A stretch of DNA of 63,148 bases, the filler included, from Collodictyon triciliatum (lineage: Eukaryota): NCBI GenBank assembly GCA_043381765.1. It is 5 parts of 4 records of this genome, joined end to end, with 100 filler letters (N's around TTAATTAATTAA, not from the genome) between each part and the next. Parts side by side here need not be neighbours in the genome. Positions count along the whole stretch, not along the records: positions 1 to 19,162 come from JBHJMP010001307.1; 4 more parts are not named here. One strand, written 5' to 3'. The translations under genes and the position numbers were made by a program. Below the pieces are notes generated by a model that saw only the letters and a program-made list of their open reading frames with translations, did no database searches and was not told where the DNA came from. Positions 6,272 through 62,878 of this stretch are shown piece by piece; within the stretch, counting starts at the first letter, position 1, and each line of letters opens with the position of its first letter.

Positions 6272-8414
6272 TCACATCTTCGGTCGCGGTGCGGTTGGAT
6301 GACTGGCGAAGTAGTTCTCCATCGCCCTGCATATATGTAGTCAGCATAAGTAATCGGCAAGTTGGGCTAAGCCGATATTTCGATTATATTTCTTTGTTTA
6401 TTGTGATAAAATATTCAAAAGTTACTGAATCGGTTATAAAACTGTCTTCTTTTTTAGTCATTTTTTGTTGCTTTTTTTTGTATTTTTTTTTTTGTTCTAG
6501 ATGTTGAAGTTTGCCCTACCTCAAATTTTGAATAATGGAATAAATCCAATACATAAAATAAATTATTATAGATATATTCGAGCTCACTTTCTGACTATTG
6601 CAGAGAGCTCACTCCGAGATTTCGACCCATCGTTCTTTATCAAAGGAAGGAACGTTAGCTTCACCTATACAAGGTGTTTATGAGCAAAGTTTGCAGAGAA
6701 GTGAAAATCACATGGCATATGAACATGGAATTCTCTTAAAAAGTTGGCGGCAAAGTGAAAGAAGGCAAAATAATAGTGTGGTTACAAAATAAAACCATAA
6801 TAGAACAAAGCAAAAAGAAGACCCAATATTATATGACAAGGGGGGACGGGAAATGAATACGAACAGCGCCCGGCTTTGCAAACAATGAACGAGGCTTCCA
6901 TAAGTCAAATGCTCCATCAAGAATACATGGCACAATATCTACTCTGCTCTCTCTAGCCAAGTAGAATGGGCCCTTCTTGAATGGAATGAGCGAACCATTT
7001 TGGCTTCGTGTTCCCTCAGGACTCACTGCAACAGCGCTTCCGCTCTCTGATATCAAACGACCTGCTTCCCTGTAATGTTACAACGATGAGTGGCCTGCTT
7101 CAAACACAAACAAACAAACAAACAAACAAACAAACAAACAAACAAACAAACAAACAAACAAACAAACAAACAAACAAACAAACAAACAAACAAACAATAT
7201 AGGATATAATGTGCATCATTTTCATCGAATTCCATCGCTAAAATGCGAAAGACTACAACATCATATCTTTATTCTTGTCATCTTTTCTACCAAAAAAGAA
7301 AGGGAAAATGTATGCCATTATATTAGTCATACTTGATGGATTGCACAGCACTGTCCAGATTCTCGCGCTCAATCGGAATGTGGCCAAAGGCTCGCACAAC
7401 CCAACCAAAAACTGGGATTTGAAATACTGATTTCTTGCCAATAAACCGAGCTGTAAGAGGCGAATGCGACAGGATTATCAATGGGTCCAACTAGAGAAAA
7501 AAATCGAGGGTTGAATCGTTCCATTCCAGCCAAAAACAGAATGCACAAGGACCAATAGGGCTAACTTGAGTTTAGTTTCAAATATGGTTTGGCTCCGTTT
7601 CATTTCGTGTTATTTTCGGTTTTTTTTTTGTCTTAATATGCCTTTATAGGTCTTTTATATATATTATGAATGAAAGTCACAGCGATTAATAACCTGCGAG
7701 ACATGGTTAAACATCAAGAGACACGGCCGGTCGAGCGGAACATTCTCTTCTCCTTCCACTTTAACCTATTCAAATACATAAAAGTTCATAAAGTTTATAC
7801 AGCTTTATTCCCTTTGCTCGATTCAAAGTGATTGTTTAAACGGTTTATAAGAATTATTGAGAGAAAAGTGATTTTCACGTGATTAAGATGCCTCTCGTAT
7901 TTCAGTAGACATGTTTGTCATAGAAGCACTAAAAAAATAAAAAATAAAAAATAAAAAGAGGGTTCAATCTTAACCTCGACGCCCATCAATGAAAGAACTA
8001 CATAGCACCACTCGCTTTGGAATACATCGATGGGAAGATTGTTTTTGTGGACCCCAAAAACCCGCAGAAAGGCTTGAACCAACACGCTTGCTGGTGTAAG
8101 CTAATATGGGAAAGCAATTATGGTGTTGATAAAAAATAAAAATAAAAACGATAGGAATCATTTTATTTATTTTCGTCATCATATCGGAATAGATAGATGG
8201 ATAGTTGTATTAGAGTCTAGACAAAGCAATATAATTAACAGCAAGATATTTTCTAACTATAAAAACCAAAATGATAATTGAAGTTGAGAACCGCAAGGAG
8301 GCCAAGCAAAGACGGTACACAGAAAACAAGAGTTGCAAAGGCGCGTAGTGACTGTTCGGCTGTCCAACGTGATCGCTTTTGTGTTACTTCCTTCGTCTCT
8401 GACTTTTCCTCCAT
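6272..8414 (-). CDS. 1-acyl-sn-glycerol-3-phosphate acyltransferase (PlsC/LPAAT family), multi-exon
   Basis: Spliced motifs NHVSQLD (NHxxxxD), FIGKKS, GHIPIER, SPEGTRS, FKKGPFYLA, IVPCILDG. Start MEEKSETK at 8414; final exons VKLTFLPLI...SAIVRK and AMENYF...PKM* (stop 6272-6274). Confidence 0.9.
7107..7196. repeat. (CAAA)n intronic microsatellite
   Basis: Perfect tetranucleotide run. Confidence 0.97.
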
Positions 8415-9331: not shown

Positions 9332-12088
9332 TCATTCAGAGGATTCTAAATGACTGATACGGTAAAGGTATTTTTCCTGTTCTATTTGCGCCCGATGATT
9401 AATCAAACTCCGTTCTTGTGCTCGAGCCAGATTTATCTGTGCAAGGAGGTGGTTCAGTAGGTATTCCTCTGAAAACAAATGTTTTTCATGTTTCCTTGTT
9501 TATCTTTTTTAAAAGGAAAAATAAATAGAAGGCCGCTGCTGAATTATAATAAAATAACATAAAAAACTTGTAAAGTACCAAGTCTGACCTTATGAGTTTG
9601 AACAGTGTGAATCATGCGGTGGTATTCTTCCTCAAGGATGTCTAGCTGTGCAATACTTAATTCCTCTAATGAAAGACCGATGTAATGGTTCAGCGAAATA
9701 CCCATAATTTGAGCATTTTGGTGATGCTCTTCGTAGGTGATACTGTAGTCTGTTTCCTTCGGGTGGTCATGCGCATTCAAATCTGTCTTCGGCTCTGATT
9801 CACTTTCAAGTTTGGCTGCGCTTGTTGCTTTCTGCAGGGCTGGGTTTGGCCCATCTCTTATCCATGGATTCCCTTTTATTGTGGACACTCTATTTTCTGA
9901 AACCGAAGCCTGCGTAAAGGATGCCAACCTATCTATTTATTTTTTTTTCAATATTTATCTATATATTCAATCGAATAGAGTATATGTGACATCTAGCTAT
10001 AATTGCAAATTGTATGATTGTTTCGTTTACCACAACTAGTTACAACTTGTGTCTGCTTCTGGGAGAGTGGGTTATGCTTTGTACTTTTGGCAGAATGTGG
10101 CATAACGCCTGTCGTAATATTCCTTTTCGGTGCATGAGAAACGATATCCTGGATGTCCTTTTGTTTCCTTTGTGCTTTTTGTCTTCCAACAAGAATGAAC
10201 TCGCCATCTCTATCGATGTCAATATGTCGTGTCGATTTCTCTATCGATTGATTAATAGGACTTTGCAAGCTCGATTGATAGACATCGCTGTATACTTCTG
10301 GTTGCTTGTCTATGGAGATGACGAATTCTGATTGTTTTCGGCTGTGGGAAGGAGATGTTTCACCGGTATTATCGACACTATTCAAATTCATATCTTCAAT
10401 CCCCTCTTGCAAATTTAGTGTCTCTATACCACCGAAAGGTTTTTTCAATTTCTTACTTTTTGTATGCGATTGAATTTTCTCTCCTTTTTTGCCGAACCTT
10501 TTTGGGTCAGACAATACCTGAGATTCCCATTTCGCAAGAAGCTCCTTTCGCTGATTCTCTAAGGCGATATAACACGGGTGCAAACCTTTTTGTTTGTCTG
10601 CTCTTTTCAGAGATTTTGCAAGGTCGAGTGGAGATAGTTTAAACTTATTTACAATACTTATATCCGCACCATACTCTATAAGAATTTTCAGGCATTCCAC
10701 TGAAGCCGCTTCAAGAGCCAAATGAAGAGATGTGTTTCCTTCATTATTCTGAAAATTTTCATCGGAAACATAAATCCATAGTTAGTTTTATGAAGTTTTA
10801 CAATAAGTGGAACACGAAGTGATCAAAAGCTGTATTGTATGTGTGACAGAACATTATGAAACCCCTCACAGTCAAGTCTAAATATCTCTTCAAGGATGCT
10901 GCTGAATTCGACCGAATGTAGTCCATAAGTAACTTGGAAATAGAATCATTCCCTACGGAGACAGCACACATCAGGGCAGTCATTTTGTCTAATAAAAAAA
11001 AAAAAGTAAACAATACCCTGTCAGTTTGGAATGGAAATAATATTGAGTATATATTTAATGAATTGAAGGAGCGATGGTGAGGATTATGTATGAAATTAAC
11101 CGTTGTTCTGTTGCAGGACAAAATCCAATCCGATATTCAAAGAAAGAAGATATTGGAAACAATCCAGATGACTATTCTTTGCAGCCCACATTAACGCAGT
11201 ATCATTCAAGTTGTTTGTAAATAATTTTCTTTCAAGAGAGCCGGAGGACATCACGTGGCATACAAGAAGCTTTAAAATAGATACATTTCCTCCTGCGCAA
11301 GCCTGATACACCACTTAGTATGTATGAAGAATAAAACCACCATGTCATGAATGAAATGTGTAGTTGCAATAAATTTGCAATGAGTCATCCTATTAAAAAA
11401 AAAAAAAAGAACGTATGACATTACATAAATCGTCGTAGGAATGAATAAATAACATACCCACATTATCGCAGAGTTTCCTAATCTTGTTGTGTGGTAGACG
11501 TCTCCTCCCTGTCATATTTGTTAACGGCATAATTGATCAGATTGAAACGCGGGTACCACTATAAAACCAAATGAGTTGCTTGAAAATGACTGTAAAAGAA
11601 AACCTCAGAAAGGATTAACTCGACACACTGCAATTGCCCGTACTCCGCTGCGATTAATAGAGGCGACCGCCCGTCGACATTCTCTGCATTAAGAATCCAT
11701 CTATTTTTTTCATCTGCGCCGAGCAAAGAACGTGCCTGTAATTGTGGGAGAATCAAAAATATAATTTGTTGACCAGTTATCAGACCCATAATTCTACAAA
11801 AGATATGAAACGAGAAGAAAAAGAAAAAATAAAATAATAAAATTAAAAAACAGAAGAGAATTATGGATATCAAATACAACGGATGATATTTCAGTGCTTT
11901 CAGGTAGATGTTTGATAGAGAAAACTTAGATCGACAGGGTGGGTGGAAAACCGAACAAAATGTAAATAATAAAAAAAAAAAAAATAGTTAAGTCCAAGGT
12001 ACTATAATGAGGTTTTTGAGGAAGGTTCACAAACTCGACCGATGTTCCCTTGGGCCACTGCGTCGAAGAACCGAACGGCTGTATCCAT
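9332..12088 (-). CDS. Ankyrin-repeat protein with low-complexity/coiled-coil C-terminus, multi-exon
   Basis: ANK repeats GRSPLLIAAEYGQLQCVELIL, DTALMWAAKNSHLDCFQYLL, MTALMCAVSVGNDSISKLL, GNTSLHLALEAASVECLKILIEYGADI, LSPLDLA. Start MDTAVRFFDAV at 12088; last exon ...HLESSE*. Confidence 0.88.
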
Positions 12089-13428
12089 TTCCACTTTCCT
12101 ATAACCGATGTTTTTCACACATGACTTGGTTTTTTTTTTCAACTCTTTCAAAGGGTCAGAATCATAACGCGCATAAATGTGGTGATCGCACACTGAGACA
12201 GACTTGAGAAGAATTAAAAAAAAAACACACACACATACACACAATGAATAAGAAAAAGTCCGTTTTGCTAAGAAATAATGAACGCACTGAGAGACAAAGG
12301 ACACAATCTCCAGAATACAATATTATTACACTTGCGTTCTTTCCTTCTTCTCCCAACCCGCCACATTCTAAAGCCAAAAAAAAAACATGCAAGCGGTCGG
12401 AAAGAGGGATCCTGAGAAGGACGAGACCGGCGCCACAGCCCTTCCCCATGGGAATGCCTACTAACCGTACGAAAACTGAAAAGGCTGACGCAGCCAACGC
12501 AAAGAGCGAAAAGGTCACTTTACCACATCCTTTACAACACAGGTTCTGCACCGAGACACACCGACAAACAAGGCACCAGCCGCCACCGACCCGCGAATAC
12601 CACAAACCGATAATAAGACAGAGCGAGCTCTTAAAGACGAATAAATAATAATTTATTTTTTTTTTTGCTTTATTCGATTCAAAGGAAGGAAGGAGATTTG
12701 GATTATTTTTTTTACAGTCCGACATAGTTGTATGCGCCTTGGTTGAAAGCAATGATGCATGTCGGATAAGGGTGCTGGCCGGCTTGGTACGGAAGCTGGA
12801 TTCGCGGCTCATCACTACGCACCCAAGAGGGTTGAGAATAATAACTCTAAAGAGCTGCAACTACCGGGAGCCCTGAACTAGATTCGATTTGAGGCCAAAT
12901 TTTCCCCCAGAGACGAATTAACATACGGCCATCTCGCCATCCTCAAGATTAAAGAAGACTTCATAACCTCATTCTATTCCTATAATTGATTTATATTTTA
13001 TTTTCCATTTTGTAATATTAATTCACAAATTCAAAAATTGCAAACAAGCCCTTGCGTTGGCCAGACAGAGTCAACCCTATAAACCTGCCACCAAACATGC
13101 ATTTCAAAAGAGCATACCATCCGCACTTGCGGCGGTAATCATGTTGTTTGGGGCCGATATGTTGATTTTCAGTCGCAATGGCTATACGGTTGTCCTTTCG
13201 AACTCGTCGAATCAGCTCTCAGTGTTTTGTCTCGAATCACTTATATAAAAAATCTTTGTGTGTTTGTTTGCCACAAAGCGTATTTTTTGAAAGTCTCGGT
13301 AGATGCTTAATTATACATATATTAATTTTATGCAGTTTTATTTATTTTTTATCAAATTGACTTTTGACTAAAGTTTTATTAAAATTGGAAACTCGTTAGT
13401 TTTCTAAAGGAAAAAGTAAAACAAAGAC

Positions 13429-15290
13429 TTTCAGACGAAGAAAAGAAAACGCCTCGAGTCTGATAGTCTAAAGTCTGTAAAACCAGACTATCGAAATGTG
13501 AAAACATCTCGAAAGTCGATTGTAAAGAATGCGGATGACTATAACACAATCAACGATACGGGTTTATTGTGTCATAATTTGGTTACCGACACTTATCTGT
13601 TTGTAACATGTTACATATTGAAATCACAACAACCCCAACAATCGATGGAATGAAGTTTTTTTTTGTACGCTTCAAAGACAGTCGGAATAGTTTCACAAGA
13701 TAGACCCGCAAGTTTAAAAACAACCAGATATGAGAGATGACATGATGACTTTTTATCTCTATGATTTTTCGATTCCTTATATCCCAAGAAGAATGCTTTC
13801 CGTTGGTTGGAATGTCTCATGTAATGTCGTACTTGGCGAAGCAAATGTTAACAGCTTATCATAATAACATTAAGGAACATTTTGCAAAGAGGTTACTGCG
13901 CTTTATAAATCAAACAGCTCCTCAAGATGAGAATATGATGGAAGCTATTAAAAAGACAGAGTTACGAAAGTTAAAAAAAAGCCATCTTCAAGATTCTCGA
14001 CATACCGGAGCAATATCAAGAATGGGCTATAACGCATTTGCATCGTATCATTCCCAGCGATATTGTAAATGATATCAAATATGACGTCAAAGTCAATCCA
14101 AATAAGTACATTCCATGTCTAATTTACATGAATCGCATTTTTGAGGATGTTGGAACCAAACTGTTTCGACCAATCCCTATAAGAACTACCAATATATCAT
14201 GTCATATTACTCTAGATACTGCACGTTTGATAGATATATGAGTATTGTCTGGAAAAACATCGTTAATGAAGAATATATCAGGATGCAAAGAGACCCTATG
14301 GGATGATTATTTTTAAATGAAGAAGAGGGTCTTTCGTCAAACAGACTACAATTTCAAATACTTGATACAAACAGACAACTTGGCGGTATTATTATTGTTT
14401 GAAAAGGAAGGGATTTCAAATTTAAAATTCCTATTTAATCAAAAGACTCAAAAATATGTCGACAGATGAGCTTTCCGAAGAGCAGCTATCTTTATTAGCG
14501 ACAAAAAAGAAAGTCGGAGCGGACGCAGGCAAGTTTAATCTGGTTTACATGGTAGATGAGACAGGTAAGAAATTACGTTACACAGCACCCCAAACAAGAC
14601 ATGATAGCAAATCTCTTAAAAATAATAAAATACTCTTGCGCGAGAAAAAAAAAAGTACAATGCTTCAGATTTATATATGACGACAGATTTACAAAGTGCT
14701 GTTTCTTTCGGTCTCAGGACTTTTGAAGAGAATCAGCAGTTTGAGACATCAAGAGCATCTTTAATCGATTAAGAGACAGAACTGAGTAAACAACACTCAT
14801 GAGCGGTCGATTATGATAAATTTCGAAAATATGTATCAATGAAATCAAGATGCCACATAGAATTTTCACGATTTTATGAACAAGAAACTTTTCGAAAGAT
14901 GAGAAAGAGACAGTATGTTAATACAAAAAGAAGTGAACAGTTGTTTATGAACTGAATCGAAAAGACATTTGGCAAGGACGTTGTACTGGCGTATGGAGAC
15001 TGGAGCAGAAAATGTTCGATGAAGCATTTCATGGCAACAATCGGAAGAGGGTTATAAAAAAAATACCATCCAAACATTTTGAAACAGTTTGTGTAAATGA
15101 ATTTAGAACATCCAAGATATGCTGCAACTGCGAAAAAGAACTGGAACATATGAAACTGAAAGGAAATACGAAAAAAGGTTGTACAGTTGTCTCATAAGTA
15201 AAGAATACAATCGGTCAGAAAGCAAACAAAGTGTATTCTTGACAAGGGACATTCACAGCGATAAAAAATATACTCAAGAAAGCGCCTTTA
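13429..15290 (+). pseudogene. Fanzor1 (eukaryotic TnpB-like RNA-guided endonuclease) pseudogene
   Basis: Collinear fragments: KTSRKSIVK..INDT..CHNLVTDTYLF; SYLAKQMLTAYHNNIKEHF..RFIN; YDVKVNP..LIYMN..KLFRPIPIR..HITLDT; LIQTD; RuvC-I VGADAGKFNLVYM (D 14522-14524); VVLAYGDWSR; RuvC-II/zinc finger VNEFRTSKICCNC (E 15099-15101); RuvC-III FLTRDIHS (D 15248-15250). Several in-frame stops and frameshifts; no intact start codon. Confidence 0.92.
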
Positions 15291-15326
15291 ATGATTCAAA
15301 AATGCATACACCTTCCTCTAAAAAAC

Positions 15327-15490
15327 AGGCTGTTGGGTCTTTCCTGGCAGCCTTCACCACTACACAATCCTTGTGAAACAAGTGGTGAGACATTGGATAC
15401 TAGTGCACCAGGTTTACCAATCGAAAGATTTTATCATCCTTCTAGTGAGTAATAAAATGTGAAATACTTATTTGAAATGTTTATAAATAC
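15327..15490 (+). ncRNA. Candidate Fanzor omegaRNA (fRNA) scaffold
   Basis: Immediately 3' of RuvC-III: hairpin AGGCTGTTGGG-tcttt-CCTGGCAGCCT (15327-15353, 11 bp including G-U), hairpin TCACCACT-a-CACAA-tcc-TTGTG-aaaca-AGTGGTGA (15354-15388), and AATC-GAAA-GATT tetraloop (15419-15430). The position matches known Fanzor/TnpB RNA loci. Confidence 0.6.
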
Positions 15491-16102
15491 TGGATTGTTA
15501 GAATAAGGAATAGGATTTAAGCGTTGGCCACAAGGCGTCGCTTTTGTTTATGTGGTGCGAGTGGGCTGGTTGTCTGATTTTCTCTGTTGGACGCGCATCC
15601 CTTGAAGCAAAACGCATCTTTCAATAGATAAAAAAAAAATCTTAATTATCAACTTTTGGCGCATTAAGTAAGAATCGCCAAATATCGTCAAGATAAGAGT
15701 CTATGCCGCATCCAAGTGTGTCAATTTTGGCTATAGTGGGCGGGTAGTACAAATTTTTATTTTATTTTTATTAGTTCTCGCGAAGATTACCACACAATAC
15801 TCCAAGAGACACAGAAGGATATCGTCTGAATAGGGTTTCATTCCACTGTGTAACCGTATTTCAAATGTAAATTCTTCTTGCGTGGCCGATATAAAAACGA
15901 ATTCTGGACTTGACAGTAGGGACGATAAAAAGAATGAAGAAAATGGAGATGCACACCAACATTCACCAACGCACCACCATCCACCAAACAGAGAGATGAG
16001 AAAAGCAGCGAGGATAAAGAAAACAGCAGAAATTCTCGCAAAAAGAGGAGGGACAAGTGAATAGAAAAGGTATGAAAAAAACTAGAGTGTCGACCTAGGC
16101 CT

Positions 16103-19100
16103 TCAGTAGTGGGCCAAACCAGGGCGGATGGGTCCCGCAGAGCTCGCACGATATGATGTGCGCTGTTCACGGCCTGGTGTCGAGGAGGTAACCTCTGATT
16201 GGGGCTGATGTCTACTTGGCTCAGAACGGCGTCCAATAACATCACCTCTCCTTTTTTTTAAAAAAAATAATAAAATTATTCGATAATAGTAATTGAAATA
16301 GTAATAGCAATAGTAATAGTAATAGTAATAGTAATAGTAATAGTAATAGTAATAGTAATAGTAATAGTAATAGTAATAGTAATAGTAATAGTAATAGTAA
16401 TAATAATGACAATAACAATGATTGAATTGGAGCCAAAACAGCAAATAATTCACTTATTTGATTTGAAATAGGAAAGAAAAGTGTGGGTACGAGAAAATAG
16501 ATTATTTACAAAGACTGTCCCATTAACTGCCTCGAGTTCTCTCGATTGGCATCTGTATATTGGCTACGCTTAGTGCTCTCGATATTCTGAGCATGCTCAG
16601 CTTCCTGTCTCCAATACTCTGCCTGTTGGTCACAGAGGTTTATTTGTTGGCGCCTGCGTTCCTATTTTGTAGTAAAAGGTTTGAATCGTAGGGGACATAG
16701 TACAAGGAGAATAAATCCATATACTTTCTACATTCAACTGCTTTTTTTTTTATTTTTAGAAATCACAAGATGAACCTCTTTTGTCTTGAGTATGTGCTCG
16801 ACCGACAGCCGAGTATCTTCCCTGTCTCGCAGAATTTTCTGAATGCGACGAAGCTCCTCCTGCTTTAGCCGTCCTTCGTGAACTCGTCTCTCATTTTGGG
16901 CTCTTACTTCGTCCTATTTCCAAGTACAAAAAAAAAATATAAAAAAATTATCATCCATTAGTTTCGTTCGCACTTCAATGGGTCTGCTTGGCGCAGTACT
17001 ATAGCATACTTCGTGAGACTTTTCGTTAGCAGATTTGATGTACGGTTCGGTCACAGCAGTAGCCCGAGCAAAGCGCCATTCTTTCGCATACCGATCAACA
17101 TATTCCCTTTCGTTTAACTAACAATGGAGTATATTGAAAAATAATGGATTTTACAATTATTCAAGTCCTAGGAAATCCCTTGACTAGACATTCTGATTTC
17201 CAATCTTACATTTCGGTCGTAATTTTCAGCAAGCTTTTCCAGCATATCTTGGTCTTCCATCATTCCCCGCACGATTAATTCTTTCTTAACCCGAAACTTC
17301 TCTTCGTTTGAAGCCAGTCCTTGGAGTAAGTCGGCGTGCCTCTATATTTATTTAAATAAGAGTATTAAAGAAACAGCCATTGATGAAATGTGAAAAAAGT
17401 ATGTACAATCAATTGCATTAAGGCTTTATTATTAGAGTACCTTGTCAGCTTCGAGTTGATGGATTCGCCTTGCTCTCTATGAATGGAGAGATGCACAAAA
17501 AGGAGAAGAAAAGAGCAAATCAGTGTCACAATAGAATGACATATGATTATGAACTTCAGAAGACTCTGGAAGTATGCACAAAAGAATGAAATAGTCACAT
17601 TTAGATCGTCTTTGATAGACTCAGCCAACTCTTCTTGTTCATTGCGCTCCAAGCTTCTTTCCGTTGCCCTGCTTTTTACTTTGTAAACCATTTCATTTAT
17701 TCTAGCGGCGTTGTCTTGTCTCTTTTTTATCAAGTTGTTGATATCTTCTACATCCTCGTCGATCAAGCTGATGTCTCCTGTGGCTGTGTATTTTGCTGCC
17801 TCTTCCTCTTCGTGGTTGCGCTGCCTTCTCATATTATCATATTTCTCCTTGGACTAAAGTAAGGAAGGTATGAAAACTATGGGATAGTGAACTATCTCAT
17901 ATATGAAAATAAATATATATGCCATTAAAAATATTACTTAAATACAAACGTCTTATTTACACAATCCAAATATGACAAATCAAAATGAATTACCATCTCA
18001 GTGAGCCTCGAGTTCATCAAATTCTTTTGAAGAATAACCCTGCTTCTTTCATTCATAATATCAGCCATGTGAGCATTTGTGTCTGCATAAGAACCCATTA
18101 CCCAGACATCAGCAGCATCTGAAATAATGTTCAAGTTGGTGGTTAATTGTTTTTGAGAGTATATATCATAGATAATATGTTCGTGCGGCGATCATGGTTT
18201 AACTTCAAATTTACTTCTTCATTTATTTACATATAGTGAATAACTACCATCGGGATTCACATAAGTGTAATATTCAGCCGTGCTCCACGAAGATTGAGGC
18301 CTGCTTTGCTCTATCGACTTTGGAGTCTTAAAGAAGAATGCATAATTATATCCAGTACCAAGGGTAGGCAATAAATGTACAATTGCCTTTTATATCATAT
18401 CATCGAAATACAATGACGGGCGGCATGAGAGATATATGACAGACAAATAAAAAAAAAATACAGATAAGCTTCTAGAATATGATGTCCCCGGTCGGGAACT
18501 GATTGTTCCGTGGACCTTTCTTCTAAAGTCATGCTCGATTCTCTCTGATGTAATTGGGTAATATGATTCAGCTTTAGACAACAAAAAGAGAAAAGGCTGC
18601 GTGCCTGTAGTCAGTTCCAATTTTCGAATAGTATTAGTCACTTTGCAAGAAATAAGACAGTTACTGATACTTACGGACTCTTTTTTGGAGCATTTCAAGC
18701 TCGGCCATTGATATTGACGGAAGAGCACCCATTTCATCAACAGCCCTCTCGATGGCCTCTTTCAAAGCTGGCTCCATATTCTTTGGTTTGAAAACATAGT
18801 TCATGAGTTTTTTGGAACATATCTAATACATAATCAAAACTCCTCTTGCGTGATATAGAACGCGGCATATAGTAGCAAATAGAAGAAAAAAGAAAAAGCG
18901 CCGAATGTAAAATTATACCACCTATATAAAAAAAATTACAGAAAAATAGAAAAATAAAACCAACAAAAAGGCCCAGTGTATTGGTCTTGATAGGATTGGA
19001 GCTAGTAGAAGATTGAAAAAAAATGGAGAGAGAGGGAGAGGCAGAGAGATGGACTCTGCAGACAACTCACAGGTTTGACAAACTTGACTTTGAGGCGAGC

Positions 19101-22680: not shown

Positions 22681-24116
22681 CCTTACCTTATGTCAATGTA
22701 CCTGTGCTCTATTTTGGTTGCTTTCCTCAGAAGAAATTTTGATGGGTTTCAGGACTGATCCTTAAATATATTCTATGTCTGCAGCGCATTGAAGGATGAG
22801 CGTGTTGCTGCATCCCAAATCCTGACTGGCCCGACCATCATACCCGCTGCTGATAAGAAGGTTCGTCATTTAACACAAGTGGAGGACTTATTTGTACCTC
22901 CTTTTTTTTTTGGGAACATGAAAAAGCCGCGAACGCGCTGGGTTCAGTGCGTTAACTGTTATCTGCCTTAACTGACGACTCAGTGACTCCATAACTAAGC
23001 GATATTCGATTCCTAATTATTGTTTTTTTCCCCTTTTTTTTGCTAATTCATCAGCAACTTGTTGATGACGTCCGCCAAGCTCTCTATGCCTCCAAGATAT
23101 GCAGTTATGCCCAGGGTATGAACCTCATCCGCAAGGCTGGCATTGAAAATGGCGTAAGTCTGCATATTTCCCAATCTAATCCTCTTCCACTTTGACCTTG
23201 ACCTAGGGTGGTATCTGTCCTAATCATTCTTATCCCTCCGTTTGCATCCCCTCATTTCTCTTTGCTGTATGTTTTGTAAGCGAAGCAAACCCCCCAGTAC
23301 TAGCGGTACTCTATAGATGGAGAAACTGTCACTTATTTCGCTCCCTCTTTACCAATATCACTATGGTGATAAATTATATAACCAGATTTTGAAGCAAATA
23401 CTCAATGCTTTATTTTCTTCTCCTTCTCTACTCATTTCTTTCTTCCATTCCTCGTTCTGACACAGTGGAACTTGAATCTGGGCTCGATTGCGCGCATCTG
23501 GAAGGGAGGCTGCATCATCCGAGCCATCTTCCTTGACCGCATCAAGGCAGCATACGACCGTGACGCCAACCTGCCCAACCTACTTGTGGACCCCGAATTC
23601 GCCCGTGAGCTGAACGAGCGCCAAGGCGCATGGAGACGCATTGTTGGGCTTTGCGCCACAAACGGCATTGCCGCCCCGGCATTCAGCGGCAGTTTGGCCT
23701 ACTTTGACAGCTATCGCCGTGCCCGCCTCCCAGCCAATCTTATCCAAGCACAGGTAAACCCTTGCCTGCCTTTACCATACAAAAATAATAATCAAACAAA
23801 CCATGTCCCTGCATAACGAATCAGGGTACAACAATAATGCTCTCGTGTCTATTCCCCTTGTACCCTTTCTTGCACATTCCTTCACAATACCTGTGACATA
23901 CACAAAGAAGTCATCGCGCATGTTGCTGCGTCCTGGATATCTTGCCCTTGTAGATTGATAGACAGAAGGGAGAAAGGAAAAAAAAATGGGAAATCCTGGA
24001 TAGTCTAATGAAAACTTCCACCATTCTTTATGTAGCGCGACTTCTTTGGTGCGCACACATACGAGCGCACAGACATTGCCGGCGCCTTCCACACCGAATG
24101 GAACTCTTCCCTCTAA
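20501..24116 (+). CDS. gnd: 6-phosphogluconate dehydrogenase, decarboxylating (11 exons)
   Basis: [81 protein letters not shown]...EWNSSL*. All 10 introns are GT-AG and phase-consistent. Confidence 0.98.
22569..22678. repeat. (TTA)n intronic microsatellite
   Basis: Trinucleotide run in gnd intron. Confidence 0.96.
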
Positions 24117-24487
24117 AGAAAAGGAGAAGAAAAAGAAAGAAAGAAGAGAGAGCCCCCGCCCAAGGACGATAAGGCCGAGCACCACAGCACACCACGTACA
24201 ACTTCCCCTCAACACTAGACAATAAAATCCCGACACAGCACACCTATAAGCCCAAAAAGCCAAGACCTGCCGCCCGCAGCATCCTCTGCATCCACATACG
24301 CGTGTTCGCATCTCCCCTCTTTCGCTTTCCCCCCTCCAGACCCACTCACCGAGAAAGCAAGACGGCGACTGCTGCTGCGGGAACCTTCCCACCCCAGACA
24401 GACCACTTGTTCCCAATGGGCGCGTTCCCAAGCGACGCATTCCTATGCAGCCCACAAGGCCGGTCTGCGGCTGCCAGGACACAGAAG

Positions 24488-24545
24488 CGACAAGGAGAAG
24501 CAACAAGGAGAAGCAACAAGGAGAAGCAACAAGGAGAAGCGACAA
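24488..24545. repeat. 13-mer tandem repeat (GCAACAAGGAGAA)x~4 upstream of the SPX-RING start
   Basis: Directly visible. Confidence 0.85.
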
Positions 24546-24561
24546 TAACCAGGAACAGAGG

Positions 24562-26406
24562 ATGAAGTTCGGGAAGCGGCTGGAGGCGGAGCGGGAGGCC
24601 GGGTGGGAGGAGCAGTACCTGGCATACACGGAGCTGAAGCGGCAGGTGAAGCGGCTGCGGGGGAGCGGGGCGGTGTCGGAGGGTGCGGAGGAGAGCGCGG
24701 TGTGGGTGCCTGTGCGGGGGTGGCTGGAGCGGCTGCAGGGCTTTGTGGCGTCGCAGGTGCGGGAGGGGCACGAGGCGCTGGGGGCGTGGGAGGCGGCGGG
24801 GGGCGCAGGGGCAGGGGCAGGGGCAGGGGCGGCGGTGCAGGTGCAGGTGCAGGTGTGGGCGGCGGTGTGCCTGCACGCGGACCGGCTGCAGCACATGGTG
24901 CACCTCAACCACCTGGGGCTGGCCAAGCTGCTCAAGAAGCGCAACCGCCACCTGACCCCGCTGGGCGCGCCGGCCCGCACGCTGGCACCCCTGCTTGCCG
25001 CCGGCGACGTCCTGCGCAGCCCCGCCCTGCACCGCCTGTGGGCCACGCTCGACCGCCTGGCTGCCCGCCTGCCTGCCGCCATCTACACGTGCGTGTGCCC
25101 GTGCGTGTGCCCCCTCTGCCTGCGCCCCGCCCGCCCGCCCGTCTGGCTGCGCTGCCGCCACCGCGTCTGTGTGGACTGCCTGGCCCACGTCCTGGCCACA
25201 GCCACAGCCACAGCCACAGCCACAGCCACGCCCGCCTGCCCCGTGTGCCGCGCCGCCCTGCCGCTCGACGACCCCGCCGCCGTCCGCGTCGACCGCAGCC
25301 TGGCCGAGTGTGCCCGCCGCTGCCTGCCCCCGACCCTCGCCGCCCTGCCGCTGCGCCTGGCCCTCGCCCTCCTCCGCGCCGACGCCGACGCCGACGCCCG
25401 CCCGGCCCTCCGCCCGCACGCCCACCCCACGCGCAGACGCCTCCTCTGGATCCAAGCACCATCACCATCACCATCATCATCATCATCACTATCACCATCA
25501 TCATCATCATCGCCCCCCACCGGCGACCTCCACGTGCCCGACATCGCCCTCTGCGTCTCGTCGCTGCTCGCCACCGCCACCGCCACCGCCGCATCGGCAC
25601 CGCTCGTGCCCGTCGTAGTCGTCGCCGACCCCGCGTGGGCCCGCTTCTACCGCAGCGACGTGCACGCCGCGCTCAACGTCTACGCCAGCGACGTCGAGGT
25701 GGTTGCGCGCATCGCCGCCAAGTGGGACCGCACGCGCTCCCGCGACCTGCCGCCCCTCTGGATCGTCCACTGGGCAGACGCCCGCCTCGGCCCCGACCGC
25801 ACCGCGGACATGGTGGCCGCCTACCGCAAGCGCCAGCGCCACTTCCCGGAGGAGGACTGGCTCGTCGTCGTCTCCTGCACTCCGCACCCCCGCCACGCCT
25901 GTGACCTCCGCCCCGCCGCCCCGCACCCCCGCCGCGCCTGTGACCTCCGCGACATCGGGCTCAAGGACGACATCCCCACCCTCGCCGGTCTCCTCTCTCC
26001 CACAGATCCAGATGCAGATGCAGACGCCGGTGTGTTCCGTGGCTCCTTCGAGCCGCTTGCGGACAGGTCGCCCTTGTGCAGCGCAGATGCAGCCGCAGAG
26101 GATTCGCGCCCGTCTTTGGGCGGCGGCGCTGCTGATCGTGCTGATGGCTGTCAAGGAGCGAATGCCCCGCTCACAGACTCTTCGTACGTCACGCTCTATG
26201 GCGATGCGGTCCTGGCGCTTCCGGGAAATAAGCGCAAATTGAATGCGGACGTCCTCTCCGAGTGGATCCGGATGCATATCTTGCCGGACGAGCACCATTC
26301 CCATTCCTACTGCCATGTCACCGGAAACACGCTCAGTCCGCCACTACCCTCCTGGGCAAAGAACAGTCCTCAGAACGACATGGAGGTGTTCTCCTTTGAG
26401 CTTTAG
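24562..26406 (+). CDS. Intronless SPX-RING (NLA/BAH1-like E3 ligase architecture) protein with an extra C-terminal region
   Basis: SPX N-terminus MKFGKRLE...WEEQYLAYTELKR, SPX C-terminus LNHLGLAKLLKKRNR, RING CPLC...CRHRVCVDC...CPVCR; one uninterrupted ORF to TAG 26406. Confidence 0.85.
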   Translation: MKFGKRLEAEREAGWEEQYLAYTELKRQVKRLRGSGAVSEGAEESAVWVPVRGWLERLQGFVASQVREGHEALGAWEAAGGAGAGAGAGAAVQVQVQVWAAVCLHADRLQHMVHLNHLGLAKLLKKRNRHLTPLGAPARTLAPLLAAGDVLRSPALHRLWATLDRLAARLPAAIYTCVCPCVCPLCLRPARPPVWLRCRHRVCVDCLAHVLATATATATATATPACPVCRAALPLDDPAAVRVDRSLAECARRCLPPTLAALPLRLALALLRADADADARPALRPHAHPTRRRLLWIQAPSPSPSSSSSLSPSSSSSPPTGDLHVPDIALCVSSLLATATATAASAPLVPVVVVADPAWARFYRSDVHAALNVYASDVEVVARIAAKWDRTRSRDLPPLWIVHWADARLGPDRTADMVAAYRKRQRHFPEEDWLVVVSCTPHPRHACDLRPAAPHPRRACDLRDIGLKDDIPTLAGLLSPTDPDADADAGVFRGSFEPLADRSPLCSADAAAEDSRPSLGGGAADRADGCQGANAPLTDSSYVTLYGDAVLALPGNKRKLNADVLSEWIRMHILPDEHHSHSYCHVTGNTLSPPLPSWAKNSPQNDMEVFSFEL

Positions 26407-36010: not shown

Positions 36011-37302
36011 GCAATGAAAAAAAAACACATGTTAGTAATAATAAAACAATACAAGAAAGAACAAGAAGAAAAGAAGAAAAGAAGAAAAGAAGAAAAGAAA
36101 AGAAGAAAAGAAGAAAAGAAGAAAAGAAGAAAAGAAGAAAAAAGAAAAAAAGAAAAAAAGAAAAAAAGAAAAAAAGAAAAAAAGAAAANNNNNNNNNNNN
36201 NNNNNNNNNNNNNNNNNNNAAAAAGAAAAAAAAGAAAAAAAGAAAAAAAGAAAAAAAGAAAAAAAGAAAAAAAGAAAAAAAAGAAAAAAAGAAAAAAAGA
36301 AAAAAAAAAGAAAACCCTATTGTGTGGTTTTTTATTCTTCCTTTCAATTTTGTGAAGGATGGTGGAGATGTTGGCAACCCCATTGTGTGGTAAATATACT
36401 CATTCGATGAAGTATTGAGATAAGAACATATAAATATTTTGATATTAAAGCATTCTGATTTAAGCGAGTGAGTGCGCCTTGTCGATAATAGAGTCAGATG
36501 ATCAATAATATTAAAAAAAATTAAACAAGGAGTTGATCAGCAAAGAGAGTCTATGATATCAGTGCAAGTAGATTAATAGGAAAATATGGTCACATCTATA
36601 CAAAATTATGTGGTTGTCAGTCATACATTAGTTGTGCTCGATTAGTTACAAAAAGTTAATAAGTTTTGAATCGAACAAATGAAGGATAAAAAATGATACA
36701 AAAATCGATAAGTTGATTTCTGGAATTATAATATGAATGTCGCAGTCAAATAGTCTTTGGTAAACTATTCAACAATTATTAATGCCCCCGACAAGAAAGA
36801 ACATGGGGGTAATATTGTCGAATCAGCTGAGATATGGGCATTAAAGTTGATTCTATTTCATAGATAGTGTTAAGCTTCAGCCCTATAAAATAAAAAAGAC
36901 GTATTTTGTTTGTTCTAGTTATTTCAAAAAACTATATAAGGTAACATTTTCATGAGTGACCCTGAGTTTGCTTAAAATATGATCTTTTCCAAAAATTGAG
37001 ATGGGCAATATAAAATGTCGTATTTCATTTATTTTTTTAATCTTACTTTCAATATCATATTTCATGAAATATAGGATGACTGCCAATATCCCCTCTTGGA
37101 AATTTAGCACAATAGGTATGCCATGTTATGTTCTCACTTGCTCACTAATTTACTCACAGTCACAGAAATATATACCAACTAAATATCTTTTACACAAGAT
37201 TCAAAACTATCCCGAGAACAAGAAGCAATAAGCAATAACCAAAAAAAAAAAAAAGAAAAAAAAAGAGGGAAAAAAAAAAAAAAAGGAAAAAAAAAGAGAA
37301 AA

Positions 37303-37868: not shown

Positions 37869-40800
37869 ATGTCAAACCTGTTTTCGCCTGCTGCTTACAC
37901 TCGCGTAAGTATCTTGAAATCGTGTCAGCTTGAAAGTTCATACTTCGATCCCAACATACAAATGTCTTTACGAAGGGCGCTTTTCTATGGCTGCGTTGTC
38001 CAAGGATCATTATTTGCTAAAGACTCAAAATATTGAAGCATTATTGATTTTCATGCCTATCTTTAGTCACTTCACTTCCTTTACTGCACATACAAAGAGA
38101 AATATGTGCGCTTCGTTGTTTTTCTTCTTCCCTTGTCAACTTATCTGAATGGTTGCTCTTTAGGGAACGCGTGTGTGGATTCCCGACGATTCCAAGGGTT
38201 GGGTTGCCTCTGAAATATTTTCTGTGGAATCGGATCACATTCAAGTCAAGGTCGACAGAGGCCCGTTGCTCACTATCAAGTAAGTTTTCTTTTCTTTTCT
38301 TTTCTTTTTCTTTTTCTTTTCTTTTTTCTGTCTCTTTTCTTTTTTCTGTCTCTTTTCTTTTTTCTTTCTCTTTTCTTTTTTCTTTCTCTTTTCTTTCTTT
38401 TTTCTTTCTTTTTTTCTTTCTCTTTCCTTTCTCTTTCCTTTCTCTTCTTTACTTTTCTCCTTTTTTCCCTGCAACAATTTTCTCAGTCATTCCGCTCCAA
38501 ACACCCTACCTTTTACATTATCGCATATATATGCAAACACTGTCTGTAAAACTTAACCAACTATAAGATAAGTAGTAATGAGAGTGCATTTATCTTAGAG
38601 ACCAATAATTCATCTAAATATCTCTTTGTACAGGCCAAACTCGATCCATGGCATAGTCATATCATCTGACGATGGAAAGGTGGGATACTTGATTGACACA
38701 TACGGCGCTGTTTATTTTCACAATGACGAGCTCCCTCTCTTTTGTCTCTCTCCCTCTCTCTCCCCCTCTCTCTCGCTCTCTCTCGTATCAATTAAATCGA
38801 TTAGTTTCGAACGTATACTGGTGAGTATTTGAGAAGACTTCAATCTATACGTTCGGTTTCACTAGCACATTTGAGAATGTTTTCCATCAATATTTTTTTT
38901 TTTTATAAAATAAATGAATTAAAAAATAGGTTTCCCTCAAAGTGAAAGTATTCGATCTTCCCAAGTGGTATGAATATAGCTGCTATTCCTGAAATAATGC
39001 TCACTAGTTAAATTTGATAATCTGATCTATTAATTTCATTTTTTTTGTTCCTTTCGTTTGTTCGTTCTCTTCTTTCTCCTAGATATTTCATATTTCATGG
39101 GCATAAATCATCCTTATATATTTGGTTAGGGTTGATGAGAAGCCAGAAAAGGTGGAAGATCTAACAAACCTTAATGAACTTCATGAGCCCTCTATTTTGG
39201 ATGCGCTGAACAGCCGTTTTCGTACAGACAACATTTATGTAACCAACCATTTGACAAATTGTTAGTAAAGATACGTGTTGTATCGTACTTGTTTATATTT
39301 ATCCTTCTATAGTTGGTTTTTGTGAATTTTTATTGGAATATTTACACACAAAATAATCAAACTATTTATGGTATTACATCATCTACTACACAATAGACTT
39401 TGACAGGAACGGTAATTATTCAACAATCATACACCACACATATAAATTTTAAGACTGTGTATTCTTTCTTTTTTAAAAAAAATACAAGCAAGCAACGAAA
39501 AAACTGCTCATATCCCCTTTTCTTTCTTCTTCTTTTGGGTCAAATATATTTAGATTTTGATTGCTGTAAATCCGTGGAAGTACATTCCTGCCCTATACAG
39601 TACCACGTATCGAGAAAGAATCAAAGTTGCTGAAACTCATAAGCTTCCTCCTCATTTATTTTCAATTGCTGAAGCTGCATATCGCAACATGAAAGCTGGT
39701 GAGAATTAATTACGATAATCCTTTAAACCCTCGTAATTTTACATACTTGATTGGGTGCAAACATGAAAAACTTTGAACCAAAGCTGGTCTCACTTTATTG
39801 TCTTCTAAAATTACACATATCAGAAAACAAAAGCCAAGCTATTCTGGTCAGGTTTGTAGCTTTAAATTTGTATATTCCAGCAGATTTCATTTCAGTTTTT
39901 TGATGCCTGTCGAACTAGGATATTCTGATGAAGCCTAAATCTAAAAGTTTATATGCGTCTCCCTTGTTACTTTTTCTGTTTATATTTCTGTAAAGTGGAG
40001 AGAGCGGTGCTGGTAAGACAGAGTCATGCAAGATTGTCATGAAATACATCAGCTCGGTTGCTGGGTTTGACAGGGTAAACAGTTTTCAGTACTTTCAGTT
40101 TCTTTAACTCTATGGTTAATTTTATTCTTTTCAATTTATAACAATCTTGGCGGATTTTCTACTTATGCTACTGGTGTAGTTAATAACAGGCTTACTGTCA
40201 TTATTATACTTCATACACTCAGGCGGGAGATATTTCAGATAAGATTGTTCAGTCTAATCCCATCTTGGAGGCTTTTGGGAATGCCAGAACAAGATTCAAT
40301 GATAATTCAAGTCGTTTTGGGAAGGTTGCAAACTAAATATTCCATTTCTTTTTAAAAGTAAATGTATGGAAACGAAAACGAGGATTCCAACTTAATTATA
40401 TTTACCTCATTCTCCCCTCATCAAATAGTTTACGCAAATAAAGTTTGATACAACATGGAAAGTGGCTGGGGCTTGTATCGAAACATGTTGTTTTTTACAT
40501 CAATTTTATTATTTTATTTAACTTTTTCACGGTGTTTCTCTCTCTTTTCCTCTTCTAATTTTATATGACCACCATTGAAATTTAAGGTTGATACCAGTAA
40601 CAACAAAATAAATGATCGCGTAAAAATCCTAGTCCTCACTTACTAATTCTTCTATTCGCTGTATATAGATCTGCTGGAGAAGGTTATTTACTGGCTAATT
40701 TCCGATCAGTTTCGGTTTTATATAGTCCAAATGATTATTTATGTAATTACCTAAATACTTTTTCTTTATTGTTATTATAAGTCGCGCGTTTGCCGACAAC

Positions 40801-62046: not shown

Positions 62047-62878
62047 ATGAGCCTCTACCAAGCCGACAAGCGCGGATCAGAGACGCCGGGCCCATACAGC
62101 GAAGCTGAGTCAAGCGGCCTGCTTCTCGGATCGCTGCCGCCACTGGGCATTCCCGCAGCCTTCCAGCCGCTGCCGCCGCAAAGCACAGCGTCCAACACGG
62201 CAGTCTCGGGCGGCGATCGGGACGACTCGCTGCGCAGCCTTCTCGCGCATCCGGCCCACTTGCCGACAGCCTCGGCCTACGAGGAAGTTTTGCTGCGACC
62301 GCACAGCCACTCGGCAAAAGCAGCCGGCCCGAATGTAACCAATCACGCGGCCGGATCTGCGGCTTCAGCTTCGACTTCGGCTCCGGTTTCCATGGCCCGC
62401 TTCTTCTACGAGCACGAAGGCGCGCTTTGGCTGACGATCTGGTTCTGCCTCAACATCTTTGTGACGCTGCTCAACAAGGCTGCCTTTCAGTTCTTTGACT
62501 TCAACTACCCCATTACCCTGAGCTTTGTCCACATGGTCTCCTCTCTGATCGGCTCGTCCTTGTCTCTGGCCAACGAAGGCGCTGTCCAGACCGCCGAATA
62601 CGCCTCCAGCAAGCGGGACTACGCCACGCTGGTCTTGTTCAGCGTTCTCTTCTGCTCAAACATCATTGTGGGCAACTCGTCTCTCCGATACGTCAGTGTT
62701 AGTCTGGTCCAGATCATCCGCTCGACGATCCCAGCCATCACGATTGTCCTCTCCATGATGCTGCTTGGGAAATCGTATAAGCGAGAGCACTTTCTCTCCC
62801 TGTGTCCCATCGTGGCAGGTGTTTGTCTTGCATCTCTTGGTGAAATCGACTTTCACATGTGGGGCTTTATGCTAACAG
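62047..62878 (+). CDS. SLC35E/TPT-family nucleotide-sugar/triose-phosphate transporter, first exon (3'-truncated by window)
   Basis: WFCLNIFVTLLNK...FNYPITLSFVHM, LFCSNIIVGNSSLRYVSVSLVQIIRSTIP, LCPIVAGVCLASLGEIDFHMWGF; donor GT at ~62879. Confidence 0.9.

What the first reader, a model, noticed from the sequence alone, without database searches (positions are those of the whole stretch)
15327..15520. Candidate Fanzor omegaRNA scaffold with intact pairing
Seen: back-to-back stems right after RuvC-III: an 11-bp AGGCTGTTGGG/CCTGGCAGCCT stem with G-U pairs (which pair on this strand only), TCACCACT/AGTGGTGA enclosing CACAA/TTGTG, an AATC-GAAA-GATT tetraloop (alternative ATTGG/CCAAT pairing), and ATTTTAT/ATAAAAT. 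Established: TnpB/Fanzor guide RNAs derive from the element's right end, with the guide read from flanking DNA. Inference: the scaffold ends around 15480-15520 and the following ~20 nt would be the guide. The RNA could act in trans with an intact Fanzor elsewhere.
Basis: partly seen in the sequence, partly recalled or inferred. Interest (0 to 1): 0.72.

Follow-up and report, generated by a model that had tools for sequence, protein, structure and literature searches.

The report
Hairpins behind a dead Fanzor gene
Two unusually stable RNA hairpins sit at the tail of a badly decayed Fanzor1 (eukaryotic TnpB-like nuclease) gene, where relatives keep their guide-RNA scaffold, but that they are a working or even intact guide RNA could not be shown.

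Summary
Only the first two (15327-15388, + strand) beat chance: z -4.4, 0 of 500 shuffles, third of 24,864 windows scanned. The rest of the region (15389-15520) folds no better than shuffled sequence.

The upstream gene (about 13441-15376) is a Fanzor1 pseudogene with at least 6 frame changes and 6 in-frame stops. A profile of its relatives matches the solved SpuFz1, PpFz1 and GtFz1 at E 1e-75 to 1e-95.

Its relatives lie in giant-virus contigs. They carry a sharply bounded right-end RNA with strong covariation, and this RNA starts inside the coding tail. A guide-RNA (omegaRNA) scaffold relic is therefore expected where the finding lies.

Homology of this locus to that RNA is not demonstrable. 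nhmmer finds nothing there, and the best + strand covariance-model hit is 5.8 bits (15368-15490).

The 5' arm of hairpin 1 is coding (KKQAVG) in the closest relative.

Verdict: most likely a decayed omegaRNA region of a dead element (about 0.5). Action in trans is untested and unlikely. This is an ordinary member of a known kind.

The parts
13441..15376 (+). Fanzor1 pseudogene. The RuvC-I (VGADAGK), RuvC-II (NEFRTSK) and RuvC-III (TRD) codons are kept, the second Cys pair of the zinc finger is lost, and the reading frame is broken many times.
   Evidence: tblastn with P0004 gives 7 pieces in frames 1,0,1,2,1,0,2 with 6 in-frame stops. Exhaustive phmmer with the read-through piece P0001 finds 819 relatives at E<=1e-3. 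A profile of 20 relatives matches solved Fanzor1 chains at E 1.8e-95, 1.6e-92 and 2.5e-75. Pfam gives only sub-threshold OrfB_IS605 and Cas12f1-like_TNB matches.
15242..15259 (+). RuvC-III motif TRDIHS (Asp codon at 15248-50). The frame changes directly after it.
   Evidence: Alignments to P0004 and P0160; sequence.
15327..15353 (+). Hairpin 1: 11 bp including 3 G-U pairs, 5-nt loop. Its 5' arm encodes the conserved tail residues QAVG.
   Evidence: -16.5 kcal/mol, z -4.83, 0 of 500 shuffles; - strand z -2.3. P0160 (76% identical relative) reads ...FKKQAVGYLP across it.
15354..15388 (+). Hairpin 2: an 8-bp outer stem and a 5-bp inner stem. The frame-2 stop codon TGA (15374-76) lies inside it.
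   Evidence: -12.2 kcal/mol, z -2.71, 7 of 500. With hairpin 1: z -4.38, 0 of 500, third of 24,864 windows.
15389..15520 (+). The remainder of the claimed scaffold, holding the GAAA-loop stem and the AU-only 7-bp stem. No structure beyond chance.
   Evidence: z +1.2 for 15389-15520, +0.78 for 15389-15460, -0.65 for 15415-15460.
15368..15490 (+). Weak, non-significant alignment to the right-end RNA model of giant-virus relatives. It has a motif-1-like stretch at 15410-23 and a closing helix 15431-45 / 15472-86 with 11 of 14 pairs standing. The model's end falls at about 15486.
   Evidence: Model R2 gives 5.8 bits, E 0.29 within 351 nt. Pairs counted. Model R1 gives only 1.4 bits on + in this region.
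15483..15490 (+). Best estimate of the element's right end; the flank-derived guide would start just after it.
   Evidence: Cover by related metagenome contigs is 9.06 in bin 15388-15474, 0.93 in 15475-15561 and 0 beyond in X1. The R2 alignment ends here. Both lines are weak, so this is an inference.
13349..13364 (+). Likely left boundary of the repeated element.
   Evidence: Contigs of run X1 break off or begin here with unlike sequence (loose ends at 13349 and 13364). The coding similarity starts at 13441.

Best explanation
The region is the 3' tail and right end of a decayed, multi-copy Fanzor1 transposon.

In living relatives this end is transcribed into the omegaRNA. That RNA has a stem-loop that starts inside the coding tail, a conserved single-stranded stretch, and a long closing helix that ends exactly at the element's right end. 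The next ~15 nt of flank serve as the guide. The nuclease binds this RNA and cuts DNA that matches the guide.

Here the nuclease gene is dead and the RNA region has decayed with it. Two strong + strand hairpins survive over the end of the reading frame (15327-15388). They are most likely part of this lineage's scaffold, or of its 5' extension. The 3' module that should close the scaffold at about 15486 survives only as a faint trace.

Shown: the gene family, the decay of the gene, the hairpins' stability and strand bias, and the conserved RNA in relatives.

Inferred: that these hairpins belonged to the omegaRNA, where the right end lies, and that the RNA is no longer functional.
For: - Gene identity. 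The profile of relatives matches SpuFz1, PpFz1 and GtFz1, the window's own piece matches PpFz1 at E 7.2e-5, and the RuvC D/E/D residues are invariant in 20 relatives.
- Decay. There are 6 frame changes between the tblastn pieces and 6 in-frame stops inside them.
- Multi-copy family. 132 short contigs of one freshwater metagenome run match 13300-15474 at 80-99%, and one of them spans 15264-15429, so the hairpins belong to the repeated element.
- Hairpins. z -4.38, 0 of 500 shuffles, third of 24,864 windows, weaker on the - strand.
- A right-end motif in relatives. 32 of 40 viral loci carry the same terminal motif, after which the flanks diverge. The stop codon lies 47-168 nt before that end, so the conserved block overlaps the coding tail.
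- Covariation in relatives. RNAalifold on 19 sequences gives 25 pairs, 6 of them with compensatory changes. On 50 aligned matches 94.6% of cells pair, against 52-62% when the partners are slid. 14 of 25 pairs change on both sides, and 0 of 500 shuffles reach this (the alignment was fitted to the model).
- Spread in relatives. The model finds 65 + strand matches at E<=2.1e-7 in 79 loci, 4 of which were used to train it.
- Stem-loop 1 of that RNA has 7 bp, as in all three solved Fanzor1 omegaRNAs (Xu 2024, section 5).
- Right end. The read cover and the R2 alignment both point to about 15483-15490.
Against: - No significant match of this locus to the relatives' RNA. nhmmer finds nothing in 15250-15600 at E<=100. 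R1 and R2 over the whole window give no + strand hit there at E<=10 and E<=5. The best local + strand score is 5.8 bits. Pairwise alignments to family A tails are not above shuffles.
- The invariant right-end motif of the relatives is absent from the window.
- In the weak R2 alignment, hairpins 1 and 2 are not model stems. The 3' half of hairpin 2's inner stem is used differently, paired with 15406-12.
- The 5' arm of hairpin 1 encodes conserved residues, so part of its conservation could be protein-level.
- Cover by related contigs is lower over the tail (8-17) than over the gene body (40-170) in X1. That does not suggest a specially conserved RNA, though contig depth is a poor measure.
- A - strand match at 15412-15466 scores higher (11.4 bits) than the + strand one, which shows how noisy this level of score is.
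Confidence: 0.5

Rival explanations
1. The two hairpins are incidental: chance palindromes in a locally GC-richer coding tail, or a by-product of the tail's codons. This lineage's omegaRNA, if it had one, lay elsewhere or is gone.
For: No homology to the relatives' RNA. The hairpins overlap coding sequence. Two other places in the window fold as well for their composition. The rest of the region is at chance.
Against: Third of 24,864 windows at exactly the place where relatives start their right-end RNA. + strand bias through three G-U pairs.
Confidence: 0.3
2. The region is still a working 'ghost' omegaRNA gene. It is transcribed and loaded in trans onto an intact Fanzor1 encoded elsewhere in the host or by an infecting giant virus, with the guide read from about 15487 onward.
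For: Gene-less ghost loci of S. punctatus give functional omegaRNAs (Saito 2023, passages). Hairpins 1 and 2 are intact. Relatives of the nuclease abound in giant-virus contigs.
Against: The closing helix keeps only 11 of 14 pairs and the invariant 3' motif is missing. The 3' half folds no better than chance. The gene beside it has decayed heavily, so the locus looks old and neutral. No intact copy and no RNA data were available.
Confidence: 0.05
3. The hairpins are a lineage-specific insert or regulatory element of the transposon, unrelated to guide-RNA function. Examples would be a 3' end-processing or termination signal, or a short palindromic insertion.
For: Relatives have no equivalent 11-bp and 8+5-bp pair at this spot. 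The window's tail between the conserved KKQAVG and the candidate right end is longer than in family A.
Against: No other copy of the hairpin sequence in the window. A related contig runs through it, so it is part of the element family. No terminator-like T run follows.
Confidence: 0.12

Closest known systems
Fanzor1 omegaRNA (SpuFz1, GtFz1, PpFz1; Saito 2023 PMC10432273, Xu 2024 PMC11423790)
   Same: It lies at the 3' end of a Fanzor1 gene on the gene's strand and overlaps the coding tail, as in GtFz1 (17 aa overlap). It is made of stem-loops, with the right end within about 110 nt of the frame-2 stop. Scaffold lengths of 75-150 nt would fit 15327-15486.
   Different: The nuclease gene is dead. 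Stem-loop 1 of the solved omegaRNAs has 7 bp, whereas these hairpins have 11 and 8+5 bp. No RNA, no guide and no protein binding are shown. No inverted repeat pairing the two ends was found.
Right-end RNA of giant-virus Fanzor1 elements (models R1 and R2, built here from IMG/VR loci)
   Same: The proteins are the closest relatives with DNA in hand (39-53% identity). Their RNA also starts in the coding tail, and the order of features (stem-loop, conserved stretch, closing helix at the end) can be laid on 15368-15490.
   Different: The window lacks the invariant terminal motif and scores 5.8 bits at best.
Ghost omegaRNA loci of Spizellomyces punctatus (Saito 2023)
   Same: An omegaRNA-type end without a working nuclease gene beside it, which could in principle serve a nuclease encoded elsewhere.
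   Different: The ghost loci are conserved, flanked by inverted repeats, expressed and active. None of this is shown here, and the 3' module looks broken.
TnpB omegaRNA/reRNA of IS200/IS605 and IS607
   Same: A guide RNA derived from the transposon's right end that overlaps the 3' end of the nuclease gene.
   Different: Those are prokaryotic, with a pseudoknot that Fanzor1 reRNAs are reported to lack (Yoon 2023 PMC10711439, passages). No Rfam family matched the window.

Membership tests
Fanzor1 (protein) | Sequence homology to experimentally characterised Fanzor1 nucleases | tested here: met
   A profile of 20 relatives against PDB chains gives SpuFz1 at E 1.8e-95, PpFz1 at 1.6e-92 and GtFz1 at 2.5e-75. 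The window's own 165-residue piece gives PpFz1 at 7.2e-5 and SpuFz1 at 0.0066.
Fanzor1 (protein) | RuvC catalytic triad D/E/D | tested here: met
   D372, E530 and D581 are invariant in alignment A1. The window keeps the codons in GADAGK, NEFRTSK and TRD. This is moot because the frame is broken.
Fanzor1 (protein) | Intact open reading frame | tested here: not met
   Seven tblastn pieces in frames 1,0,1,2,1,0,2 and 6 in-frame stops, with further frame changes in the tail shown by the P0160 alignment.
Fanzor1 (protein) | DPG and TDG motifs, named as Fanzor hallmarks by Yoon 2023 (passages) | tested here: inconclusive
   The window reads DAG and TDN, while relatives P0004 and P0002 read DPG and TDG. 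This is consistent with decay.
Fanzor/TnpB omegaRNA | Encoded at the 3' end of the nuclease gene, on its strand, and running to the transposon's right end | tested here: inconclusive
   Position and strand fit. The right end is only estimated at about 15483-15490 from two weak lines.
Fanzor/TnpB omegaRNA | Scaffold conserved, with covariation, among copies of the element | not testable with these tools
   No second copy in the window, no genome held, and no close paralogue DNA in viral or metagenome contigs. The read table listed only two differences in 15327-15400 (15379 and 15392), both in unpaired positions.
Fanzor/TnpB omegaRNA | Stem-loop 1 of seven base pairs (Xu 2024, section 5) | tested here: inconclusive
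   The hairpins have 11 bp and 8+5 bp. An alternative 3+3-bp stem, 15369-75 with 15406-12, is what the model uses.
Fanzor/TnpB omegaRNA | A discrete small RNA whose 3' end reads about 15 nt of flank as guide | not testable with these tools
   No run on record as RNA was listed for this stretch.
Giant-virus Fanzor1 right-end RNA (models R1, R2) | Significant match in sequence and structure | tested here: not met
   Over the whole window there is no + strand hit at 15250-15600. Locally R1 gives 1.4 bits and R2 5.8 bits (E 0.29). nhmmer finds none.

The most novel reading that the evidence does not exclude
This host lineage keeps gene-less omegaRNA-type loci that are still transcribed and loaded onto an intact Fanzor1 encoded elsewhere in the host or by an infecting giant virus. 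The loci would be the relic at 15327-15490 and perhaps the solo model match at 39735-39834. Dead transposon copies would then go on supplying guides. A variant of this reading: the subfamily has replaced the usual 7-bp stem-loop 1 by the two long hairpins seen here.
Probability: 0.05. Interest if true: 0.6.

Novelty: new member of a known kind. Interest (0 to 1): 0.25.

Why it matters
As it stands this is one more decayed Fanzor1 copy with the remains of its right end, which is ordinary.

The analysis has two useful by-products. First, this eukaryotic copy's nearest relatives with DNA in hand sit in giant-virus contigs, which fits gene flow between giant viruses and their hosts. Second, those viral elements share a well-bounded, covarying right-end RNA that overlaps the coding tail, and a model of it can annotate omegaRNA genes in such viruses.

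If the relic were shown to be expressed and bound by an intact nuclease, it would extend the 'ghost omegaRNA' idea beyond Spizellomyces.

Tried and rejected
- Whole genome: none is held.
- Rfam: no family matched at gathering score in the whole window.
- Other copies in the window: none by blastn.
- Word-index protein searches. The query 14937-15197 with 'longer' lengths found nothing. The tail frame 15107-15373 with 'near' lengths found nothing. P0159 with 'longer' lengths found one protein, P0160.
- Sequencing runs. No RNA holder was listed; 7 DNA holders, all metagenomes, held small shares of 0.05-0.11. I laid four of them (X1-X4 of X1-X8). Parts without cover, and the low depth over the tail, are weak observations only.
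- Close paralogue DNA. P0001, P0002 and P0160 against viral contigs gave nothing or only distant relatives at 46-50%. P0159 against metagenome contigs gave 28 loci, the best at 38% over the whole query.
- Terminal inverted repeats in 13000-15800: nothing convincing among 39 pairs.
- Flank repeat or target-site duplication: a 12-nt likeness I noticed by eye was not above shuffles.
- Tandem duplication of the tail (15296-15395 against 15396-15500): score 17 against a null of 16.7.
- Likenesses seen by eye between the window and the viral tails. These were GTTGGGTC against the conserved stretch, CACAATCCTTG against family A, and CAATC-4 nt-GATTTT spacing. None was supported by nhmmer, pairwise alignment or the models, and I treat them only as leads.
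- The host's identity was not pursued beyond 'eukaryote'.
- A search for targets of the putative guide was not run, because the right end is too uncertain and chance matches to a short AT-rich string would not be informative.

Full report
**1. The observation**

- Hairpin 1 pairs 15327-37 with 15343-53. It has 11 bp, three of them G-U pairs that would be mismatches on the other strand.
- Hairpin 2 pairs 15354-61 with 15381-88 and encloses a 5-bp stem, 15363-67 with 15371-75.
- A 4-bp stem with a GAAA loop lies at 15419-30.
- An AU-only 7-bp stem pairs 15428-34 with 15452-58.

Folded whole, the 194-nt region is unremarkable. It gives z -1.58 on the + strand and -1.49 on the - strand, with 15 of 200 shuffles as good on each.

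Taken apart, with 500 dinucleotide shuffles each, the picture splits:
- Hairpin 1: z -4.83, 0 of 500.
- Hairpin 2: z -2.71, 7 of 500.
- The pair together: z -4.38, 0 of 500. On the - strand the pair gives z -2.68.
- 15389-15460: z +0.78.
- 15415-15460: z -0.65.
- 15389-15520: z +1.2.

The window starting at 15326 on + ranks third by folding energy corrected for GC content.

The double hairpin is therefore real, strand-biased and rare. The 3' half of the claimed scaffold is not.

**2. The gene in front of it**

The pieces of reading frame between 13441 and 15376 give only sub-threshold Pfam matches: OrfB_IS605 at E 0.0058 and Cas12f1-like_TNB at E 0.0064.

An exhaustive phmmer search with a 165-residue piece, read through two stops as X, found 819 proteins at E<=1e-3. 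Many are 580-700 residues long.

Twenty full-length relatives align with invariant RuvC residues D372, E530 and D581. A profile of them matches the solved Fanzor1 nucleases of Spizellomyces, Parasitella and Guillardia at E 1.8e-95, 1.6e-92 and 2.5e-75. The window's own piece matches PpFz1 at 7.2e-5.

The gene is dead. Against P0004 it falls into seven pieces in frames 1,0,1,2,1,0,2 with six in-frame stops, and the second cysteine pair of the zinc finger is lost. It is the only Fanzor-like coding region in the window.

**3. It is a repeated element**

No whole genome is held and the window has no second copy.

Public runs that hold parts of the stretch are freshwater and other metagenomes with small shares. 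Laid at 80% likeness, one run gave 132 short contigs over 13300-15474, most of them 80-95% alike.

Contigs break off at 13349 and 13364, which is the likely left end.

At the other end, summed depth falls from 17.5 (15301-87) to 9.06 (15388-15474), then 0.93 (15475-15561), then 0. In a second run it falls from 3.26 to 0.67 to 0.

One contig spans 15264-15429 with 18 differences and 3 gaps, so the hairpins belong to the repeated unit.

Only two differences inside 15327-15400 were listed, at 15379 and 15392. Both are in unpaired positions, so they say nothing about the stems.

Depth over the tail is lower than over the gene body (40-170). Contig depth is a poor measure, but this does not suggest special conservation.

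**4. What relatives have at this place**

The nearest relatives whose DNA I could fetch lie in giant-virus contigs of IMG/VR. One scan confirmed 353 relatives, the closest at 52-53% identity to the window's RuvC-II piece.

In 32 of 40 loci the element ends with the same short motif. Beyond it the flanks of different loci are unrelated. The stop codon lies 47-168 nt before that end, and in one locus (L006) only about 19 nt before it (my count).

The conserved block begins inside the coding tail. The nucleotides are kept while the stop codon moves and a variable peptide is read from a hairpin loop. That pattern points to constraint on an RNA rather than on the protein.

RNAalifold on 19 sequences gives two elements: a 7-bp stem-loop with 4 outer pairs, and a 14-bp helix that closes the structure at the very end. 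Of the 25 pairs, 6 show compensatory changes.

A covariance model of it (R1) finds 65 + strand matches at E<=2.1e-7 in 79 loci, four of which had been used to build it. It also finds the more distant family A at E 0.004-0.03.

On 50 matches aligned to the model:
- 94.6% of cells pair, against 52-62% with the partners slid.
- 14 of 25 pairs change on both sides.
- No shuffle of 500 reaches any of the five measures.

Two caveats apply. That alignment is fitted to the model, and it contains four - strand matches.

Seven base pairs in stem-loop 1 is also what all three solved Fanzor1 omegaRNAs show (Xu 2024, section 5 read). Published Fanzor1 omegaRNAs are 75-150 nt, span the right end, read about 15 nt of flank as guide, and can overlap the coding tail (Saito 2023, passages; Yoon 2023, passages).

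A scaffold relic is thus expected exactly where the finding lies.

**5. Does the window's sequence match that RNA?**

It does not match significantly.
- nhmmer with profiles of the viral right ends reports nothing in 15250-15600, even at E<=100.
- R1 without filters over the whole window lists 26 matches at E<=10, none on the + strand there.
- Restricted to 15250-15600, R1's best + strand score is 1.4 bits.
- A broader model, R2, built from 50 matches, gives 5.8 bits for 15368-15490. That is E 0.29 for the 351 nt searched, or about 50 such matches expected in the whole window.

The R2 alignment lays the conserved single-stranded stretch on 15410-23. It lays the closing helix on 15431-45 with 15472-86, where 11 of 14 pairs stand. 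The element's end falls at about 15486.

The bases 15371-75 pair with 15406-12 instead of 15363-67.

A - strand match at 15412-66 scores more (11.4 bits). This shows the noise at this level of score.

Pairwise alignments of the tail to the four family A right ends, and of the two halves of the tail to each other, are not above shuffles.

The one point in favour is a coincidence of two independent weak lines. The model's end (about 15486) and the point where related contigs stop covering (roughly 15480-15485, inferred from the bin depths) agree to within a few bases.

**6. Coding or RNA?**

The closest relative for the C-terminal part is P0160: 223 residues, 76% identical to the window's RuvC-II piece.

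It reads ...HTPLFKKQAVGYLP and then ends; whether at a stop or at its contig's end is unknown. The window reads ...MHTPSSKKQAVG in frame 2. The 5' arm of hairpin 1 is therefore coding and conserved at the protein level.

After the loop, frame 2 stops at 15374-76, inside hairpin 2. Frame 1, which P0160's last residues seem to follow, stays open to 15460-62.

In intact copies the reading frame may therefore run through most of the region, as it does in L006. Overlap with coding sequence does not argue against an omegaRNA. It does mean that conservation of the arm alone proves nothing.

**7. Reading**

Most likely (about 0.5): the region is the decayed omegaRNA part of a dead Fanzor1 copy. The two hairpins are surviving structure from the scaffold or its 5' extension, the 3' closing module is eroded, and the right end lies near 15486.

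About 0.3: the hairpins are incidental.

About 0.12: they are some other element of the transposon.

About 0.05: the RNA still works in trans, as the ghost loci of S. punctatus do.

No terminal inverted repeats and no target-site duplication were found.

**8. Novelty**

This is a new member of a known kind. The interpretation as a Fanzor right end is reasonable, but 'intact pairing' and a definable guide are not supported. Nothing here departs from what is known of Fanzor1 elements.

Noticed in passing
window 39735-39834, - strand: The best match in the whole window to both right-end RNA models is here: R1 gives 20.8 bits (E 0.035) and R2 gives 21.1 bits (E 0.079). It has a 9-bp stem-loop, a 12-of-14 match to the conserved single-stranded stretch, a 5-bp hairpin and a 12-of-13-pair closing helix ending in the family's terminal letters. 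It lacks the invariant inner motif. No Fanzor coding similarity lies nearby. It may be a solo ('ghost') right end or it may be chance. Fold z is -1.9, 7 of 200 shuffles.
   Followed up: partly
window 36776-36897 (+) and 7273-7360 (+): Two further weak matches over the full length of the R2 model (18.5 and 17.1 bits, E 0.24 and 0.43), also listed by R1. The window's matches show no likeness to each other beyond what the model imposes.
   Followed up: partly
L001-L228 (IMG/VR giant-virus contigs): A Fanzor1 clade is widespread in giant-virus contigs (353 confirmed relatives in one scan). It has a sharply bounded, covarying right-end RNA whose first stem-loop is read as a variable peptide in the protein's tail. 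Extra - strand model matches in the flanks of some loci (for example L015:62-169 and L019:2031-2085) may be further solo ends.
   Followed up: partly
L014-L037, about 40-50 nt upstream of the start codon: The left ends of the viral elements share a short stretch that resembles, in direct orientation, part of the right-end motif. No terminal inverted repeat was seen.
   Followed up: no
window 24001-26000: A sharp GC-rich island (0.69 GC against about 0.36 around it). It holds a 718-codon open frame with weak SPX and RING-finger matches.
   Followed up: no
window 16296-16400: A long hexanucleotide microsatellite (AATAGT repeats), 0.8 kb downstream of the element.
   Followed up: no
window 9993-11314 (-) and 61804-62976 (+): Host-type genes: open frames with ankyrin repeats, and a transporter of the triose-phosphate transporter family (TPT, E 4.5e-27) whose nearest Atlas clusters are all eukaryotic.
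   Followed up: partly
window 15412-15466, - strand: The reverse complement of the AU-rich stem region matches the stem-loop 1 part of the viral model better (11.4 bits) than anything on the + strand here. Probably chance (E 4.8 for the whole window).
   Followed up: no
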